Below the pieces are notes generated by a model. It was not told where the DNA came from. It saw only the letters and a list, made by a program, of their open reading frames with translations, and searched no databases. Shown here piece after piece: positions 8,034-19,510 of a stretch of DNA of 61,010 bases (position 1 is the stretch's first letter; each line of letters opens with the position of its first letter). Where the stretch lies: NCBI GenBank assembly GCA_040900375.1, contig JBBDZC010000003.1, positions 130,586-191,595 on the forward strand. Reading direction: 5' to 3'. The translations under genes and the position numbers were made by a program. The stretch comes from Candidatus Anderseniibacteriota bacterium (GTDB lineage: Bacteria > Patescibacteriota > Andersenbacteria > UBA10190).

Positions 8034-11015
8034 TTACGGTCGGGCCATGACTGCACCAATAACCAGGTCCTGGCGCAACGCGCCGCGGTAGGTCAGACTA
8101 CGAGCATCAGTGAGGGTAATACCATCCGCCGGCACTGTGTGGACAATCTCCACTGCTTCCGGCAGGTGTAATTCTGCCCGGATAGTAGAGCGGGTATCAC
8201 CCGGCTGCTTGGCAATGTACATTTGGTAGGTGGCCGCCGCCTTTAACATTCCTGGAAGCTCGGCGTGGCCGGGAATCCGATAACGGTATAAACCAACAGT
8301 CGTTGCTCCCGGCTTAGCAATGATCCAGTTAGCAAACGTCGTATAGCCTACTTCTTGACCAATCGTTGTCCCATCTGCGGCTTGGGTTTGCACTTGCTGC
8401 CACTGCGTAACTTCTGCATCGGGTGTTAGAACTATTTCTCCTATGTCAACCAGCCGCGGTACATCGGCGGGCGAGGAAAAACCGTGTGCTTCGAGTAAGA
8501 TCGCTCCCTGCGGAACCATCACACGTTGATAGACAATGTTATCTTTATATGCCGGATTCTCGCCGGCAGGATATTCATAATCGAGAGCTTCCTCGGGACC
8601 CCGATGAGTGCGGCGAATGGTAAGCACGACTTCGACATCACCCGACGGATGCACCTGCGTTCGGTAATCAATTTCCTGGTCAATAAATTGATCACTCTTA
8701 TGACCGCCAATATTGGCTGTATTGACACCTAAAAATCCTTGAGCGCCCGCGGGAAATGAGCCATCCCAGCCTGCCTGCGTAATCCGTTGCTGCAATTCTG
8801 GATCACGGAAATAAATAAGTAAATGTTTCTCACGAATCATCTTTCCTAGTGCACCGAGCACCCGTAAACTATCCGGGGCAGGCGCAGTAAACAATCGCTG
8901 CAGCAACATCGGAGTCAAATCAGCTAAAAATTGCTTGGGACGATTCTCCGCCCGATCGTACGAGTAGGTAACCTGATCCTGCGTTAACACCACAAAGTTA
9001 TCGGCATCAATTGTTGTCTCGTAACCCGGCACGGTGACGGGCCCCGTAATCTTAAGTAGTTCTTTGATAACCTCGGGCGTGATCGCAATCACCCCGTCAA
9101 CTGTGGGCCCACCTTCCTTTTCGAAAAAACCGGCTATCTTTTGGGCGCTAAGCTTGTAATCAATAAACCAATTGGCATCGCGCATAAACCAACGGGGAGT
9201 AATTGCCAGCAGTGGGCTAGGGGGAGCAATAAAATCCTGTAACTGGCCATCGGGATCATAGACACTCTGCACATCAATATCCTCCACTACCCCGCGATCA
9301 ACATTGAGCAGGGCAATGCTCCCAATAAATCCTCCGGTTGGGCGCAGCTCATGATTATTTTCAAAAAGCACTAAGTATTGGCGACTGCGCTGAGCGCCAA
9401 GTACGCTAAGCATGACTTGGCTTTGCTCTAAAAAAGCCGCAAGGGTGTGGTGCACTTTGGGAACAACCACCGTAAGTTGCTCTACCGGCATAGCCATGTC
9501 AGCCGGTAAAACAGTCGTGTCCACTTTCTCTAGTGAGGTAGCTGCTTCAGCAAGCGACTCTTCCGCCAGCGAAAATTCTTCAATGGCGCGGGCTAAAGCA
9601 TCAACAATTGTGGGTGTATGTCCCCCTTCCGACGAGGCTAAAACATCAGCCGTCAATAGTGGCGCCATGCCGCGCGATACGTGCTTCCCCGCTTTCGTCA
9701 GCGCCTCACCCGCCACGAGAAGCTCTTCGCCTGACCGAACTCGGCCCGTGATATCAATCTGCCGCAGTAATATTCGCGACGTAGCTAGCGCCTGTGTTAA
9801 TTCTTGATGAGCTGTCCGCAGCAACGCTTCGGCCTCCCCAAACTCCTGCTCGCTTGTTGTAAAATCTGTCTCGGCTAAGGCGCTTTGCGCCGCGCCTAAA
9901 TGCTCATACGCCTGTTGCGCCTGGGCTGTCACCGAGCCTATAACAGCTAGCCCGCGAGCTGCTCCCTGCAAGTGACTGACTAAGCCGACCATCGCGCTTA
10001 AACCGACAAACAACAACAAGAGGTTAGCGCCGCGGCGCCAAATGTTCACATCACCCGCCTGAGCATAACTTTGTCTTAGACGATCCTGGGATTCAAACGA
10101 CTCGGACTCTGCGTAAATTTTTTTTTTACTCCCTCCGATACCGGATTGAGAAAGAGCTGCGGGTCGCCGCTTCCAGGGAAATATACTAAAGTGCAACGGC
10201 AGCGCAAAGCGCCGTTTCGGTTTCCTCACGGGCGCCAAGACCGCTTGGGCTTCTGTTAGAGAAACTTCGTGTGGTTTTTCCGCATCTCTCCGAGGCTTCT
10301 CTGGTGTCGGCCAGCGATAGGGCACATCACGAACATCATTTCCCAAGGCTATTCTCCGAGGTAACGCAGACGTAGAACTCTGGCGATGAGGAGCCGGTGA
10401 CAATAGTGGCCGGGAGGCACGAGAACTTGGGCGACCGGCTTCAGCCCGCCCCGGCGCATGCAACTCGGCACGAGCTACATGTCCCCTGGCCTCTAATCGG
10501 CGGGGGCCTGATCTTTGTGTTTGGGACAGGGGAGGAGACACTGCCCGAGAAGCTGCGCTTATACCGCCAGCTGCTGGGCGCAGTGTGGTACGCCCATAGT
10601 AAGGCGGAGCTGGCAGTTGGAGGTCCGGGCGCGAATGCATGTACACATCACCGGTGTGATGTTCTGCTCCCACGTTTTCCCCCGTGCCAGCGTATGACCC
10701 CGTATAACCAGGATGAGTATCAGGCAAGGTTGAATAAATTGGCCGCCGTTCAAAGCGAACAATTGCTTGCCGGGCGCGTTTGCGTCGTCGCTGTCGTGCC
10801 AGTTCTTGCCGAACAGGCCGGCGCAGACGAGCCGGTAGACGCCAATCAATTGTCACCACTGCTGGCCGCGCCAAATTTTTCTGCCCGCTGGCAGTTCGGG
10901 ATCGGCTCGTCTTTACCAGCGGGTTGGGGCGCGCCCGCGCTGCCCGTGGGGTGCGACGTGGCGGCGAACCAGCAACTCCTGTTGGACGAGATGTTGGGGG
11001 AACAACATCAAACAT
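8034..11015 (-). CDS. DUF4012-domain membrane-anchored protein with long disordered Arg/Pro-rich N-terminus
   Basis: YLVLFENNHELRPTGGFIGS, RDANWFIDY, VDGVIAITP, NIGGHKSD motifs recalled for DUF4012; TM helix near aa 330. Confidence 0.8.
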   Translation of the reverse strand: MFDVVPPTSRPTGVAGSPPRRTPRAARARPNPLVKTSRSRTASGQKNLARPAVVTIDWRLPARLRRPVRQELARQRRRKRARQAIVRFERRPIYSTLPDTHPGYTGSYAGTGENVGAEHHTGDVYMHSRPDLQLPAPPYYGRTTLRPAAGGISAASRAVSPPLSQTQRSGPRRLEARGHVARAELHAPGRAEAGRPSSRASRPLLSPAPHRQSSTSALPRRIALGNDVRDVPYRWPTPEKPRRDAEKPHEVSLTEAQAVLAPVRKPKRRFALPLHFSIFPWKRRPAALSQSGIGGSKKKIYAESESFESQDRLRQSYAQAGDVNIWRRGANLLLLFVGLSAMVGLVSHLQGAARGLAVIGSVTAQAQQAYEHLGAAQSALAETDFTTSEQEFGEAEALLRTAHQELTQALATSRILLRQIDITGRVRSGEELLVAGEALTKAGKHVSRGMAPLLTADVLASSEGGHTPTIVDALARAIEEFSLAEESLAEAATSLEKVDTTVLPADMAMPVEQLTVVVPKVHHTLAAFLEQSQVMLSVLGAQRSRQYLVLFENNHELRPTGGFIGSIALLNVDRGVVEDIDVQSVYDPDGQLQDFIAPPSPLLAITPRWFMRDANWFIDYKLSAQKIAGFFEKEGGPTVDGVIAITPEVIKELLKITGPVTVPGYETTIDADNFVVLTQDQVTYSYDRAENRPKQFLADLTPMLLQRLFTAPAPDSLRVLGALGKMIREKHLLIYFRDPELQQRITQAGWDGSFPAGAQGFLGVNTANIGGHKSDQFIDQEIDYRTQVHPSGDVEVVLTIRRTHRGPEEALDYEYPAGENPAYKDNIVYQRVMVPQGAILLEAHGFSSPADVPRLVDIGEIVLTPDAEVTQWQQVQTQAADGTTIGQEVGYTTFANWIIAKPGATTVGLYRYRIPGHAELPGMLKAAATYQMYIAKQPGDTRSTIRAELHLPEAVEIVHTVPADGITLTDARSLTYRGALRQDLVIGAVMARP

Positions 11016-16909: not shown

Positions 16910-18331
16910 CTATACCGCGTTCTTGTCCTTAGTAAGAATCAAGAATGTTTTTACCAACAGAATGATATCGAGCCATAATGACCAACTTTCGATATAGCCG
17001 ATATCGAGTTTAGCCTCTTGTTCAAATGATAATCCCGCATTGCCGTTGACTTGGGCCATGCCGGACATGCCTGGCTTAATCGTAAACAGCTTGCGGTGAT
17101 GCTTGTGATATTTTTCTACTTCTTCCGGCAAATGAGGCCGTGGGCCAAACAAGCTCATCTCCCCTTTTAAAACATTGAGTAACTGGGGCAGCTCATCAAT
17201 CCGCCAGCGGCGCAGCCGACGTCCCATTCGAGTAATACGCGGGTCTCGTTTCATTTTAAAGAGCGGACCACTGCGTTCATTGGTCTTCTCTCGTAAATCT
17301 TGCTCAAATTTTTTAGCTGACTGCCCACCATAAGCCTCGCCCGTACAGTACTCAACTTTCATGCTTCGAAACTTATAAATACGAAATGGTTTAGTGTTTC
17401 GCCCCACCCGAATTTGCCGATAGAGAACTGGTCCTGGTGTATCCCACTTAATACACAGTGCCGTCAAGAGCAGCAGTGGGGACAGTAATAGCAGCCCTAG
17501 ACCCGCCCCCGCTAAATCCATGACTCGTTTGGCAACTCGGCCCCAGCCATCAAGTGGCGTCCGTAACAACTCCATCACCGGTACCCCACCTAGCTGGCGA
17601 AAGCGCACGTTTGCGGCATGAGTCTCAAATAAATTAGGCACGTACTTATAGTCAATCTTGTACTGGTCACAAAAATCGAGTAGGACTAAGTTATCTTCTT
17701 CCGGCATTGATGGATCAGTTTGAATAACCTCGTCAATCCCCGTGCGCTGGTATAAATTTTCTAAAGCATCCCCCCGCACCGCCTCCGGAATGGCCACCAC
17801 GCGGTATCCTAACTGCGGTCGCTGCCGAAAAATTTCTGCGAGCTGCCAGGAAGAGCGGCCATTCCCTACCAGGGCGACGCGGTGAATTCCCACACCTCGT
17901 CGCAAAAACAGAATCTGGAGCCGGCGGATGCCATATCGACCGAGTGTCACAAAAACAAGGGCAACTATATACGCCGCCAATAATATGAACCGTGATTGAA
18001 AAAGTTCAGCGCTTAAGAAAATGTAAACAATAATTAACATGAAGCCCAGGGTAATCCCGCCAAAGATTCGGGTCAGCTCATCGAGATACCGCCGGGTTAC
18101 CTGCATGGCATACAATCCCTGGAGCGCAAAGATGCCCACAATCACGCTCGTCACAATAATGACGAGTTGCAGGTAATTAATAAATGGCAAATCAAGCTGA
18201 AAGACCGCCGGTCGAACTTCTTGAACGTACGGGCTGATACGCAAATAGTAGGCCACCACCCCCGCCATCACTAACGCAAAAAAATCTACCGGCACTAAGA
18301 TGGCATCAAACAATAATTCAGAACGCTTCAT
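16910..18331 (-). CDS. priming polyprenyl-phosphate glycosylphosphotransferase (WcaJ/WbaP family)
   Basis: KRVMDL, YKFRSM, DPRITRMG, RIDELPQLLNVLKGEMSLFGPRP, KPGMSGMAQV. Confidence 0.94.
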   Translation of the reverse strand: MKRSELLFDAILVPVDFFALVMAGVVAYYLRISPYVQEVRPAVFQLDLPFINYLQLVIIVTSVIVGIFALQGLYAMQVTRRYLDELTRIFGGITLGFMLIIVYIFLSAELFQSRFILLAAYIVALVFVTLGRYGIRRLQILFLRRGVGIHRVALVGNGRSSWQLAEIFRQRPQLGYRVVAIPEAVRGDALENLYQRTGIDEVIQTDPSMPEEDNLVLLDFCDQYKIDYKYVPNLFETHAANVRFRQLGGVPVMELLRTPLDGWGRVAKRVMDLAGAGLGLLLLSPLLLLTALCIKWDTPGPVLYRQIRVGRNTKPFRIYKFRSMKVEYCTGEAYGGQSAKKFEQDLREKTNERSGPLFKMKRDPRITRMGRRLRRWRIDELPQLLNVLKGEMSLFGPRPHLPEEVEKYHKHHRKLFTIKPGMSGMAQVNGNAGLSFEQEAKLDIGYIESWSLWLDIILLVKTFLILTKDKNAV

Positions 18332-18482
18332 GAAACTTTAATAACAATAAGGAGTAAGCAGTACTACGTAACCGGAGTTATGTCAAGATCGAGATGTCTG
18401 TTTCCTAGTTTACCCTGCGACTAGACCCAGCACAACCAACTGCTTCCCCGCAAGATACGTTCGTCAATTGACCTCATATAAG

Positions 18483-18507
18483 AAAAAACCAGCCATGAAT
18501 GACTGGT
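18483..18507 (-). terminator. intrinsic terminator
   Basis: Minus strand ACCAGTCA-TTCA-TGGCTGGT-TTTTTT; the G-U pair forms only on the minus strand. Confidence 0.7.
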
Positions 18508-18886
18508 GTACTATGCGTTCTCTTAAATACCGTGGTGCGGGTATCGCCCAAGCTTAGGAGTACAGAGCTTCGCCGGGCTTAAGGAGGTAGTTCCCCTCAC
18601 CCCTCCCCACCTTCTGTCTTTTCCTAAGGAGTAGGGGCCTTGTCAGTTCAGGGCTTCGTAGAGCCACGTAGTTCACACTCTACGGGAAGAACGGGGCAGT
18701 AGGCTGCCCCAAGCGGGGAAACCCTGACTCACTGCCCACATACCAAAAAAGAAGGCCGTCCACCGCGTGGACGTTTACAGGAGTACACCCAGACTGCTAC
18801 GTCACTTCAAGGAGTGTCGTGGCAGGGTGAGCGGCATCCGGGGCCCGGACGCGTCTGACGCACTATATAGATTGGGTAGAGAACGT
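18483..18886. ncRNA. candidate ~400-nt structured ncRNA of unknown family with repeated AGGAG/CUCCU motifs; strand unresolved (promoter and terminator favour minus)
   Basis: No ORF >=60 aa; end-to-end stem 18516-18523/18878-18885; many hairpins; five AGGAG copies; flanked by a minus-strand promoter and terminator. Confidence 0.6.
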
Positions 18887-18892
18887 GCCTGT

Positions 18893-18921
18893 ATGGTGGG
18901 GAAAGGGAGAGAGAGTGTCAA
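18893..18921 (-). promoter_or_regulatory. putative sigma70 promoter for the candidate ncRNA
   Basis: TTGACA (rc 18916-18921)-N17-CACCAT (rc 18893-18898); predicted +1 near 18886, at the start of the closing stem. Confidence 0.5.
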
Positions 18922-18959
18922 GGGGGAAACTTAAATAACTCTCAAATGCATGCGGTGCA

Positions 18960-18987
18960 TTGACAACCTATAATAATAAGGTATACT
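18960..18987 (+). promoter_or_regulatory. sigma70 promoter of rnpB
   Basis: TTGACA-N16-TATACT ending 7 nt before the P1 helix. Confidence 0.8.
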
Positions 18988-18993
18988 AGCAAT

Positions 18994-19475
18994 GCGAAGA
19001 TGGGTGTGTGGTCGCTGGTAATCCTTACCGATTGCCAGAGGAAAGTCCGGACACCCTGTTATTTGTAAAAATAGCAGCCCAAGGTGACAGGTAACGCCTG
19101 TCCGAGGAAGTTTTTGGTATCGTGCTTTGGCTCGATATCAAGACGCACTCGCGGGACTAAAAAATTCTGGCAAAGATGTCGCACACGTGTAATATCTTTG
19201 TCGGTGAAGCGAAGAGCGCAACAGAAACATACCGCCCCGCTCTACCGCGGGGTAAGGGTGAAATCGTGAGGTAAGAGCTCACGCGGCGGCGTGGTAACAC
19301 GCCGACGGTGCAAACCCCACCTGGTGCAACTCCAAGATTGCTCGACCCCAAAAGGGCCGAGCAAGGTCGGAGGCATGAGATGTGCTGCGAAGCACACCCT
19401 AGAGAGATGGCCATACTCCCGCAAACTTTATTAAGTGAGCGGGCAGACAGAATCCGGCTTATAGCCCGTCTTTGT
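18994..19475 (+). ncRNA. rnpB: RNase P RNA (bacterial type A-like, expanded)
   Basis: Conserved GAGGAAAGTCCGG, GCAACAGAAA, GGGTGAAA, GGTAAGAGC, CAAACCCC, ACAGAATCCGGCTTA; P1 = GCGAAGATGGG/CCCGTCTTTGT. Confidence 0.97.
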
Positions 19476-19476
19476 T

Positions 19477-19510
19477 CTAAAAATCCCGTCGCCCGCGACG
19501 GGATTTTTAG
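19477..19510. terminator. bidirectional intrinsic terminator (rnpB / pilin)
   Basis: CTAAAAATCCCGTCG-CCCG-CGACGGGATTTTTAG perfect inverted repeat between convergent genes. Confidence 0.85.

What the first reader, a model, noticed from the sequence alone, without database searches (positions are those of the whole stretch)
18483..18921. Unassigned ~400-nt structured RNA next to rnpB carrying five SD / anti-SD motifs, several in hairpin loops
Seen: an ORF-free interval bounded on the minus strand by TTGACA-N17-CACCAT (+1 near 18886) and an intrinsic terminator (18483-18507). Its ends pair (CGTTCTCT 18516-18523 / AGAGAACG 18878-18885). It holds many stems: GGCCTT/AAGGCC, TCAGGG/CCCTGA, CGTAGAG/CTCTACG, GGGGCAG/CTGCCCC, GTCCAC/GTGGAC, CACCC..CTGCTACG/CGTGGCAG..GGTG. 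AGGAG occurs five times on + (18556, 18582, 18627, 18779, 18810), three times in loops: AAGCTT-AGGAGTACA-GAGCTT, CCTA-AGGAG-TAGG, TAC-AGGA-GTA. Established: CsrB/RsmY/RsmZ RNAs display repeated loop GGA motifs to titrate CsrA, and ACCUCCUUA is the canonical 16S anti-SD tail. Inference: a + strand RNA would be a CsrB-like SD-mimic sponge (several G-U pairs favour +). A - strand RNA (promoter and terminator favour -) would display CUCCU loops, including an exact ACCUCCUUA (rc 18580-18588), i.e. a multivalent anti-SD RNA. I do not recognise it as any known family.
Basis: partly seen in the sequence, partly recalled or inferred. Interest (0 to 1): 0.85.

Follow-up and report, generated by a model that had tools for sequence, protein, structure and literature searches.

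The report
Orphan noncoding insertion beside rnpB
A roughly 550-base stretch without genes, found only in this one small-genome bacterium, probably encodes a young regulatory RNA on the reverse strand, but nothing yet shows that it is conserved, expressed or functional.

Summary
The sequence features are real: a 664-nt ORF-poor gap (18332-18995) lies between a Bac_transf sugar-transferase gene (minus) and rnpB (plus). It holds the reported stems, a good minus-strand intrinsic terminator (18477-18507), and six same-strand AGGAG copies (five reported, plus 18350). AGGAGTA is the most enriched k-mer; 5 of 600 random genome windows were as extreme. Folding is moderately better than background (z -3.0 minus, -2.2 plus; 5th and 15th of 260 genome windows).

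No Rfam family matches, and nothing like it was found in all 34 other family genomes, 400 sampled phylum genomes, 149 relatives (covariance model), phages, plasmids or 8 metagenome loci. In 13 relatives with the same gene order the gap is 24-137 nt, so this is a genome-specific insertion. Covariation cannot be tested.

The genome encodes CsrA and lacks FliW, but the CsrB-like sponge reading fails. A(N)GGA density is about 3 per 200 nt, the motif strand has no terminator, and the motifs are not preferentially unpaired.

Best reading (0.45): an orphan minus-strand sRNA gene whose CUCCU motifs could pair with Shine-Dalgarno sites. The main rival (0.33) is a non-functional relic. Interest is low to moderate.

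The parts
18332..18995 (.). ORF-poor gap between the sugar-transferase start codon and rnpB. About 550 nt of it is absent from relatives.
   Evidence: In 13 relatives with the same gene order the gap is 24-137 nt.
18893..18921 (-). Promoter-like site: TTGACA (18921-18916), 17-nt spacer, CACCAT (18898-18893).
   Evidence: Read. Not listed by the scan (-10 matches 3 of 6). In two relatives (L020, L021) I read a likely TACCAT -10 16 nt downstream of the TTGACA before rnpB (my reading, no scan).
18483..18886 (-). Predicted noncoding transcript body of about 400 nt.
   Evidence: MFE -161.7 kcal/mol, z -3.04. Ranks 5th of 260 genome windows. No Rfam match.
18477..18507 (-). Intrinsic terminator: 8-bp stem 18488-18507, loop of 4, then a U-run.
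   Evidence: In this genome 111 of 195 hits of this class lie within 150 nt after an ORF end.
18757..18773 (-). Internal hairpin CGTCCAC/GTGGACG followed by GCCTTCTTTT. A weaker terminator-like site that could give a shorter RNA.
   Evidence: Not found by the stricter scan.
18636..18758 (-). Central multi-stem domain: outer stems GGCCTT/AAGGCC and TCAGGG/CCCTGA enclose two hairpins.
   Evidence: Present in the MFE folds of both strands. Pairs checked.
18516..18523 (.). 5' arm (plus coordinates) of the 8-bp end-closing helix. Its partner is 18878-18885.
18878..18885 (.). Partner arm of the end-closing helix.
18350..18356 (+). Motif copy AGGAGTA (CUCCU on minus). Lies outside the predicted RNA, just upstream of the sugar-transferase start.
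18556..18562 (+). Motif copy AGGAGTA.
18582..18586 (+). Motif copy AGGAG. The minus strand reads ACCUCCUUA (18588-18580).
18627..18633 (+). Motif copy AGGAGTA, in the small hairpin CCTA/TAGG.
18779..18785 (+). Motif copy AGGAGTA.
18810..18815 (+). Motif copy AGGAGT.
18591..18625 (-). 35-nt purine-rich tract on the minus strand (a pyrimidine tract on plus). It pairs with two of the CUCCU copies in the minus-strand MFE.
18332..18345 (.). Left copy of a 14-nt direct repeat (13 of 14 identical), directly next to the sugar-transferase ATG.
   Evidence: These are the only two copies with at most 1 mismatch in the 1.03-Mb genome.
18926..18939 (.). Right copy of the 14-nt direct repeat, 594 nt from the left copy.
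16910..18331 (-). Flanking gene: Bac_transf sugar transferase, first gene of a glycosyltransferase cluster.
   Evidence: Pfam PF02397, 209 bits.
18996..19477 (+). Flanking gene: rnpB (RNase P RNA, bacterial type A), with promoter TTGACA-16-TATACT at 18960-18987.

Best explanation
The interval is a noncoding insertion of about 550-590 nt, specific to this genome, sitting between the divergent promoters of the sugar-transferase gene and rnpB. It carries its own minus-strand transcription unit. Transcription would start at the TTGACA-N17-CACCAT site (about 18886), run through a moderately structured body of about 400 nt, and stop at the intrinsic terminator (18507-18477). That terminator lies upstream of the sugar-transferase gene's own proximal promoter.

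The product would be an orphan, evolutionarily young trans-acting sRNA. Its five CUCCU(U) copies are complementary to this organism's AAGGAG Shine-Dalgarno sequences. They could therefore pair with ribosome-binding sites of mRNAs and lower their translation, as the C/U-rich loops of several Gram-positive sRNAs do.

Shown: the sequence signals, the motif enrichment, the insertion status, and the lack of any homolog. Inferred: transcription, the strand, and the whole mode of action.
For: - Terminator. The minus-strand terminator has 8 bp and a 6-U run. Hairpin-plus-T-run sites of this quality are mostly genuine here: 111 of 195 lie within 150 nt downstream of an ORF end on the same strand. An orphan one therefore implies an unannotated transcript.
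- Promoter. There is a perfect -35 with a 17-nt spacer. The -10, CACCAT, resembles the TACCAT that I read as the likely -10 of rnpB in two relatives (L020, L021, my reading, no scan).
- Separate unit. The sugar-transferase promoter element CTTGACATAAC (18388-18378, minus) is shared with relative G014 and lies downstream of the terminator.
- Folding. The minus strand folds better than the plus strand: -161.7 against -156.4 kcal/mol, z -3.04 against -2.22, ranks 5 of 260 against 15 of 260.
- Coding. No coding signal was found. ORFs are at most 55 aa with no Pfam hit. No residual similarity appeared to 830 neighbour ORFs of relatives or to 3162 ORFs of this genome.
- Motif. AGGAGTA is the top k-mer (p 1.8e-7), and 5 of 600 random windows are as extreme. 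AAGGAG is this organism's SD: 247 of 1950 AGGAG copies precede a start codon opening an ORF of 80 aa or more, and the 16S tail reads CACCUCCUUUCU.
- Assembly. The sequence is not an assembly artefact. It is identical in contigs of three runs, and one 17-kb contig spans it.
Against: - No homolog was found anywhere searched, so there is no covariation and no evidence of selection.
- The -10 box is weak, and the promoter was not called by the scan. Upstream regions of this genome's tRNA genes show several TATAAT-like boxes where I could read a promoter by eye.
- The CUCCU motifs are not preferentially unpaired in the ensemble: 0.59, 0.17, 0.52, 0.07 and 0.55, against a mean of 0.35 for the RNA.
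- The structure and motif statistics each sit only in the top 1-2% of genome windows.
- This genome has 21 ORF-poor gaps of 500 nt or more, so a large gap is not exceptional.
- One helix carries a G-U pair on plus, and one carries a G-U pair on minus, so pairing asymmetry does not settle the strand (read).
- Hfq is not found in the genome.
Confidence: 0.45

Rival explanations
1. Non-functional relic. The insertion is a piece of foreign or rearranged DNA, for example the untranslated 3' end of a lost gene with its terminator, or the scar of a mobile element. It has not yet been purged, and its motifs and stems have no function.
For: - It is present in only this genome.
- The site upstream of rnpB is variable in the family. 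G003 has an unrelated 479-nt structured insertion there (z -4.5). G012 has csrA there. Other relatives have other ORFs there.
- A 14-nt direct repeat (13 of 14) sits at 18332 and 18926, and these are the only two such copies in the genome. Such a repeat could mark insertion or duplication joints.
- The statistics are only in the top 1-2%.
Against: - The genome is only 1.03 Mb, and I assume that non-functional DNA is lost quickly in genomes this small.
- An intact strong terminator and a perfect -35 are retained.
- No terminal inverted repeats beyond 8 bp, and no second copy in the genome.
- No similarity to phages, plasmids or any ORF.
- The left repeat copy lies outside the conserved sugar-transferase promoter, so the repeat does not cleanly bracket the insertion.
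Confidence: 0.33
2. Long 5' leader or attenuator of the polysaccharide gene cluster. Transcripts from the upstream promoter normally stop at the terminator and read through into the sugar-transferase gene under some condition.
For: - It has the same orientation as the Bac_transf / glycosyltransferase cluster and lies directly upstream of it.
- There are one or two terminator-like hairpins in the leader.
- The central domain offers mutually exclusive pairings (CCCC-GCUU-GGGG against GGGGCAG/CUGCCCC, read).
Against: - The gene keeps its own proximal promoter element, shared with relatives that lack the insertion.
- It has no SD and looks leaderless or short-leadered, as in relatives (TATAAT 7 nt before the ATG in L020/L021).
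- No riboswitch or leader family matches.
- 13 relatives regulate the same gene with 24-137 nt of spacer.
Confidence: 0.08
3. Plus-strand SD-mimic RNA that binds CsrA, a sponge analogous to CsrB/RsmZ. It would fill the role of the missing FliW antagonist in this lineage.
For: - csrA is present in the genome (88.5 bits) and in 32 of 35 family genomes.
- FliW was found in 0 of 35.
- There are six A(N)GGA-type AGGAG copies on one strand. Local 4-5-bp hairpins can display three of them (read).
- csrA is reported among highly expressed genes of ultra-small groundwater prokaryotes (PMC9938205, one passage seen).
Against: - A(N)GGA density is about 3 per 200 nt, far below what I recall for known sponges (roughly 1 per 15-20 nt). 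No noncoding window in the genome reaches 8 per 200 nt.
- The plus strand has no promoter call and no terminator; it would run into rnpB.
- The motifs are mostly paired in the plus-strand ensemble (mean unpaired 0.34).
- CsrA is family-wide but the element is unique to one genome.
- No Rfam CsrB/Rsm match.
Confidence: 0.06
4. One or more small proteins are encoded here (the 22-55-aa frames).
For: - Frames of 39, 40 and 55 aa exist.
- The genome has other ORF-poor gaps that may hide small genes.
Against: - No frame has an SD at proper spacing. Four of the six AGGAG copies have no start codon 3-12 nt downstream. The other two are followed, 8 and 12 nt on, by frames of only 20 and 35 codons.
- No Pfam hit.
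- The sequences are arginine-rich and look random, with no hydrophobic peptide of the type I toxin kind.
Confidence: 0.04
5. DNA-level element: the repeated 7-9-bp motif is a set of binding sites for a DNA-binding protein acting on the divergent promoters.
For: Six same-orientation copies of (TA)AGGAGTA lie within 465 bp between two promoters.
Against: - Spacings are irregular (206, 26, 45, 152, 31 nt) with no helical phasing.
- The motif equals the organism's SD.
- Relatives control the same promoters without it.
Confidence: 0.03

Closest known systems
C/U-rich-loop trans-acting sRNAs that mask Shine-Dalgarno sites (S. aureus RNAIII, Listeria LhrC, RsaE/RoxS). Recalled from general knowledge, not from a call.
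   Same: - A stand-alone unit ending in an intrinsic terminator.
- Several hairpins.
- Several copies of a pyrimidine motif complementary to the SD.
- Size close to RNAIII, which is about 500 nt as I recall.
   Different: - No sequence or Rfam relationship.
- The motif is CUCCU rather than UCCC.
- Exposure in loops is not supported by the ensemble.
- No targets, expression or conservation are known.
CsrB/CsrC/RsmX/RsmY/RsmZ CsrA-titrating sRNAs
   Same: - csrA is present in the genome.
- Repeated GGA-containing SD-like motifs lie on one strand.
- Some sit in small hairpins.
   Different: - Motif density is several-fold lower.
- The terminator is on the opposite strand.
- No model match.
- It is not conserved although CsrA is.
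3' end of 16S rRNA (anti-SD tail)
   Same: The minus strand contains GGGGAAC, then one base, then ACCUCCUUA (18597-18580). This recalls the helix-45 loop and anti-SD tail. This genome's own 16S reads GGGGAACC...CACCUCCUUUCU.
   Different: - The 12 nt between the two elements in the real 16S are missing.
- There is no further similarity.
- The SSU model gives no hit on the interval.
- The resemblance was noticed post hoc.
Miniature mobile elements (MITE-like) or integration scars
   Same: - A lineage-specific insertion at a variable site.
- A 14-nt direct repeat near both ends.
- An 8-bp inverted repeat near the ends of the RNA body.
   Different: - A single copy in the genome.
- No real terminal inverted repeats.
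- The direct repeat does not bracket the insertion cleanly.
- No transposase or integrase nearby.

Membership tests
CsrB/Rsm-type CsrA sponge RNA | The genome encodes CsrA/RsmA. | tested here: met
   PF02599 at G000:C1:158-313, 88.5 bits. Found in 32 of 35 family genomes.
CsrB/Rsm-type CsrA sponge RNA | High density of A(N)GGA motifs. In known members this is about one per 15-20 nt (figure recalled). | tested here: not met
   2-3 per 200 nt on the plus strand and 0-1 on the minus strand. A threshold of 8 per 200 nt was reached only by two coding windows elsewhere.
CsrB/Rsm-type CsrA sponge RNA | GGA motifs displayed in hairpin loops or single-stranded linkers. | tested here: not met
   Mean unpaired probability of the five plus-strand AGGAG copies is 0.34, against 0.375 for the whole RNA.
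CsrB/Rsm-type CsrA sponge RNA | Own promoter and Rho-independent terminator on the motif-bearing strand. | tested here: not met
   No plus-strand promoter or terminator call inside the gap. The only terminators are on the minus strand.
CsrB/Rsm-type CsrA sponge RNA | Match to an Rfam CsrB/CsrC/Rsm model. | tested here: not met
   No hit at the gathering threshold or at E up to 10.
CsrB/Rsm-type CsrA sponge RNA | Binds CsrA. | not testable with these tools
   Needs a gel shift with the recombinant protein.
SD-masking C/U-rich sRNAs (RNAIII/LhrC/RsaE-like, by mechanism) | Independent transcription unit with promoter and intrinsic terminator. | tested here: inconclusive
   The terminator is strong. 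The promoter has a perfect -35 but a weak -10 and was not called by the scan. No RNA data.
SD-masking C/U-rich sRNAs (RNAIII/LhrC/RsaE-like, by mechanism) | Pyrimidine motifs complementary to the SD, exposed in loops. | tested here: inconclusive
   Five CUCCU copies, complementary to AAGGAG. Unpaired probabilities are 0.59, 0.17, 0.52, 0.07 and 0.55.
SD-masking C/U-rich sRNAs (RNAIII/LhrC/RsaE-like, by mechanism) | Sequence or structure homology to a described family. | tested here: not met
   No Rfam match.
Housekeeping RNAs (tmRNA, SRP RNA, 6S, second RNase P RNA) | Model match, or absence of the RNA elsewhere in the genome. | tested here: not met
   - tmRNA is at C21:36688-37094, and ARAGORN finds nothing in the window.
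- There is no SRP RNA, but also no Ffh or FtsY. This absence is published for Parcubacteria (PMC4508563).
- No 6S hit.
- No similarity to rnpB.
New conserved structured RNA family | Homologs in other genomes with covarying base pairs. | tested here: not met
   - 0 of 60 relatives and 0 of 400 phylum genomes by BLAST, counting only real matches; 30 of the 400 gave chance matches of 18-37 nt.
- 0 of 29 rnpB loci by nhmmer.
- 0 of 149 relatives by covariance model; the single hit had E 0.09.
MITE / IS remnant | Terminal inverted repeats, target-site duplication, several copies. | tested here: not met
   Single copy. Only an 8-bp inverted repeat. A 14-nt direct repeat exists, but its meaning is unclear.

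The most novel reading that the evidence does not exclude
The interval encodes a multivalent SD/anti-SD riboregulator in a CPR bacterium. This could be a minus-strand RNA whose repeated 16S-tail-like CUCCUUA motifs compete with ribosomes for mRNA Shine-Dalgarno sites. It could instead be a plus-strand SD-mimic that titrates the CsrA of a lineage with no FliW. Either would be the first regulatory sRNA mechanism described for the Candidate Phyla Radiation. My two paper searches on this found no described CPR regulatory sRNA.
Probability: 0.08. Interest if true: 0.75.

Novelty: new member of a known kind. Interest (0 to 1): 0.3.

Why it matters
Almost nothing is known about RNA-based regulation in CPR/Patescibacteria. 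These organisms have 1-Mb genomes and no Hfq. As seen here, csrA is near-universal in this family while the known antagonist FliW is missing. A verified sRNA with SD-complementary motifs would give a first handle on post-transcriptional control in these uncultured organisms.

As it stands, the element is a single-genome orphan without expression or conservation evidence. It is a candidate to keep on a list for metatranscriptome mapping, not a discovery.

The comparison with relatives also shows that the spot upstream of rnpB is a recurrent site of lineage-specific insertions in this family.

Tried and rejected
**Identities tested and rejected**
- tmRNA. ARAGORN finds nothing in the window, and the real tmRNA is on contig 21.
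- SRP RNA. A GUCAGG...CAGCC stretch on the minus strand looked SRP-like to me, but no SRP model hits it. The genome also has no Ffh or FtsY.
- 6S RNA.
- Decayed duplicate of rnpB, suggested by the 594-nt repeat period. There is no similarity beyond the 14-nt repeat.
- Decayed gene. tblastn of 830 ORFs from relatives' rnpB loci gave a best E of 2e-4. tblastn of 3162 ORFs of this genome gave a best E of 3e-5. Neither is significant after multiple testing.
- Type I toxin-antitoxin. There is no hydrophobic small ORF.
- TIGR-Tas guide array. This was seen only as a search listing and abstract start (PMC12045711). The motif spacing is irregular, and no Nop-domain protein turned up among the neighbouring genes that I scanned with Pfam (the other neighbours were only read).
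- Phage or plasmid origin. No blastn match.

**Searches for comparative or expression evidence**
- Homologs through synteny in JGI metagenomes gave 8 loci. The best has 66% protein identity but only 140 nt upstream, and shows no similarity.
- Strain variation for covariation: the three runs hold the identical sequence, and no contig lacks the insertion.
- Expression: no RNA holder listed.
- A clean target-site-duplication model for the 14-nt repeat conflicts with the conserved promoter element lying inside it.
- A scan of csrA and rnpB loci of relatives for AGGAG clusters found only a few clusters, whose coding status I did not check.

**Not done**
- A DNA-pattern scan of metagenome or viral contigs.
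- Whole-genome scans of relatives for analogous motif-rich RNAs.
- Supplementary files of papers were not opened.
Full report
**1. Setting**

The window is G000:C3:130586-191595 of a 1.03-Mb, 23-contig genome. The finding lies in a 664-nt gap (18332-18995).

- On the left is a minus-strand gene, 16910-18331. It is a Bac_transf sugar transferase (PF02397, 209 bits) followed by two GT1/GT4 glycosyltransferases.
- On the right is rnpB, 18996-19477 on the plus strand (RNaseP_bact_a, 199.4 bits). Its promoter is TTGACA-16-TATACT at 18960-18987.
- A prepilin-type gene follows rnpB on the minus strand (PF07963).

The closest database relatives of the sugar transferase carry CPR names: Parcubacteria group, Saccharibacteria and Peribacteria MAGs at 36-43% identity. 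The genome also lacks Ffh, FtsY and SRP RNA. That absence is published for Parcubacteria (PMC4508563; abstract and one passage seen).

**2.

AGGAG occurs on the plus strand at the five stated places and also at 18350. It never occurs on the minus strand of the gap. ORFs inside the gap are 39, 40 and 55 aa, without Pfam hits. Four of the six AGGAG copies have no start codon 3-12 nt downstream. The other two are followed, 8 and 12 nt on, by frames of only 20 and 35 codons.

The DNA is not an assembly artefact. One 17-kb contig of run X1 spans it, and contigs of two further runs of the same study are identical over it.

**3. Is it more than chance?**

- *Motif.* The genome holds 0.95 AGGAG per kb per strand. 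The gap has 6 copies against 0.63 expected, 5 AGGAGT against 0.14, and 4 AGGAGTA against 0.046. It is the only place in the genome with more than three AGGAGT in 500 nt, or more than two AGGAGTA. In an unbiased k-mer test, AGGAGTA is the top word of the gap (Poisson p 1.8e-7). However, 5 of 600 random 664-nt windows have some word at least as enriched.
- *Structure.* The minus strand folds to -161.7 kcal/mol (z -3.04; 0 of 100 shuffles as good). The plus strand folds to -156.4 (z -2.22; 2 of 100). After regression on G+C, against 260 real genome windows of equal length, they rank 5th and 15th.
- *Terminator.* A stricter scan of my own gave 195 hairpin-plus-T-run hits in the genome. Of these, 111 lie within 150 nt downstream of an ORF end on the same strand, 48 lie inside ORFs, and 36 are orphans. 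Some of the orphans lie close to rRNA genes (16S and 5S). The class is therefore mostly genuine, and the one at 18507-18488 is an orphan.
- *Loops.* The claim that the motifs sit in loops is not borne out. Ensemble unpaired probabilities of the five copies average 0.38 on minus and 0.34 on plus, no higher than the RNA as a whole.

**4. No relatives: the interval is an insertion**

No Rfam family matches at the gathering threshold. At E up to 10 there were three noise hits of about 14 bits.

Searches that found nothing real:
- BLAST against 60 relatives.
- BLAST against 400 evenly sampled genomes of the phylum. Thirty genomes gave only chance matches of 18-37 nt, with per-genome E of 0.002-0.1. 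One of these genomes, G189, is marked unpublished.
- nhmmer against 29 rnpB loci of the family.
- A single-sequence covariance model of 18590-18775 (minus) against 149 relatives, which gave one hit at E 0.09 and 13.7 bits.
- Phage and plasmid collections.
- Eight metagenome loci found through the sugar transferase.

The family holds only 34 other species-level genomes. All were searched, and G000 is alone in its genus.

Synteny is informative. rnpB was found in 33 of 35 family genomes. Of the 29 relatives' loci fetched, 13 have the long minus-strand ORF (454-486 aa) directly upstream of rnpB, with a gap of only 24-137 nt. Two more (L020, L021) show the same arrangement when the sequence is read. 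Three loci have no upstream sequence. The remaining loci have other ORFs there.

Only G003 has a large gap (479 nt). It holds an unrelated sequence with a long hairpin (z -4.5) and no AGGAG cluster.

G000 keeps the conserved sugar-transferase promoter element (CTTGACATAAC, shared with G014) within 60 nt of the ATG. It also keeps the conserved rnpB promoter. About 550 nt in between are therefore new.

A 14-nt direct repeat (13 of 14) sits at 18332-18345 and 18926-18939. These are the only two copies with at most one mismatch in the genome, and 4 of 500 shuffles reach the alignment score. The repeat may mark a duplication or insertion joint. It does not bracket the insertion cleanly, so I leave it unexplained.

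**5. Which strand?**

The minus strand has the terminator, a perfect -35 with a 17-nt spacer, and a -10 (CACCAT) that the scan did not accept. That -10 resembles the TACCAT that I read as the likely -10 of rnpB in two relatives (L020, L021, my reading, no scan).

The plus strand has no promoter or terminator call, and a transcript there would run into rnpB.

Energies favour the minus strand slightly. G-U asymmetry is one helix each way: GCGUCCGG/CCGGAUGC needs G-U on minus, and CUGCUACG/CGUGGCAG needs U-G on plus (read). I put minus-strand transcription at roughly 0.6-0.7.

**6. The CsrA idea**

The genome does encode a canonical CsrA, as do 32 of 35 family genomes. FliW was found in 0 of 35, and Hfq is absent from G000. 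How CsrA is antagonised in this family is therefore an open question.

This element is still a poor sponge candidate:
- It carries only 2-3 A(N)GGA per 200 nt.
- The motif strand lacks transcription signals.
- The motifs are mostly paired.
- The element exists in one genome, while CsrA is family-wide.

No noncoding window of G000 reaches 8 A(N)GGA per 200 nt.

**7. Most likely mechanism**

I read the interval as an orphan, young minus-strand sRNA gene (0.45). This organism's SD is AAGGAG: 247 of 1950 AGGAG copies precede a start codon opening an ORF of 80 aa or more, and the 16S tail reads CACCUCCUUUCU. The RNA's CUCCU(U) copies could therefore pair with ribosome-binding sites. That is the way C/U-rich loops of RNAIII, LhrC or RsaE work (recalled, not from a call). 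A 35-nt purine tract (18625-18591, minus) pairs with two of the copies in the MFE, so part of the motif set may simply be structural.

All of this is inference. The main rival is a non-functional relic (0.33). Smaller rivals are a leader or attenuator of the polysaccharide cluster (0.08), a plus-strand CsrA-binding RNA (0.06), small proteins (0.04) and DNA-level sites (0.03).

**8. Verdict**

The features are real, and the interval belongs to no known family. It is unique to one genome, so it cannot be called a structured RNA family, and its function cannot be tested by comparison. I file it as a candidate orphan sRNA, a new member of a known kind, with interest 0.3.

No RNA run was available.

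Noticed in passing
G000 whole genome; family f1 (35 genomes); phylum sample (201 genomes): No signal recognition particle was found.
- Bacteria_small_SRP: 0 of 35 family genomes.
- Large SRP RNA: none in G000.
- Ffh M domain (PF02978): 0 of 201 phylum genomes.
- SRP54 GTPase domain: only marginal P-loop-level matches in 22 of 35 genomes, and none in G000.
- SecY is present.

This agrees with a published statement for Parcubacteria (PMC4508563), so it is known, but here it holds across a wide sample.
   Followed up: partly
G000:C1:158-313; family f1: csrA is present in 32 of 35 family genomes, with several copies in some. FliW was found in 0 of 35, and Hfq is not found in G000. The antagonist of CsrA in this CPR family is unknown. 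In G012, csrA lies about 150 nt upstream of rnpB (C7:9257-9409 against 9558-9968).
   Followed up: partly
L023 (G003:C2) about 1022-1500, upstream of rnpB: A second, unrelated 479-nt ORF-free insertion lies at the same syntenic site in another genus. It has a long near-perfect hairpin and fold z -4.5. The spot between the sugar-transferase gene and rnpB seems to collect lineage-specific noncoding DNA.
   Followed up: partly
window 18332-18345 and 18926-18939: A 14-nt direct repeat (13 of 14), 594 nt apart, at the two edges of the gap. These are the only two copies with at most one mismatch in the genome. Its meaning (duplication joint, duplicated promoter piece or chance) is unresolved.
   Followed up: partly
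window 18332-18390 (minus strand) and L020/L021: The sugar-transferase gene has no SD. A TG-extended -10-like TATTAA lies 6 nt before its ATG. In relatives of genus g2 a TATAAT lies 7 nt before the ATG. The mRNA may be leaderless. Relatives also share an inverted pair TGTCAA-N7-TTGACA in the spacer, whose second half is altered in G000.
   Followed up: no
G000:C12:78178-79217; C14:27985-29493; C4:3756-4719; C12:68526-69458: Four further gaps of about 1-1.5 kb free of ORFs of 75 aa or more, none with an Rfam match. The C12:78178-79217 gap has six AGGAG on its minus strand and a minus-strand terminator at 78348-78321.
   Followed up: partly
G000: C4:42, C7:32170, C10:16848, C12:9021, C12:38252, C15:40627, C16:15028, C20:13787: A dispersed, nearly identical GC-rich palindromic hairpin of 10-11 bp followed by a T-rich tail occurs at eight or more places, three of them within 50 nt of a contig end. 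It is a repeat family of terminator-like elements.
   Followed up: no
window 18580-18597 (minus strand): GGGGAAC, one base, then ACCUCCUUA. This resembles the helix-45 loop plus anti-SD tail of 16S rRNA with the intervening 12 nt missing (compare). It was noticed post hoc and may be chance.
   Followed up: no
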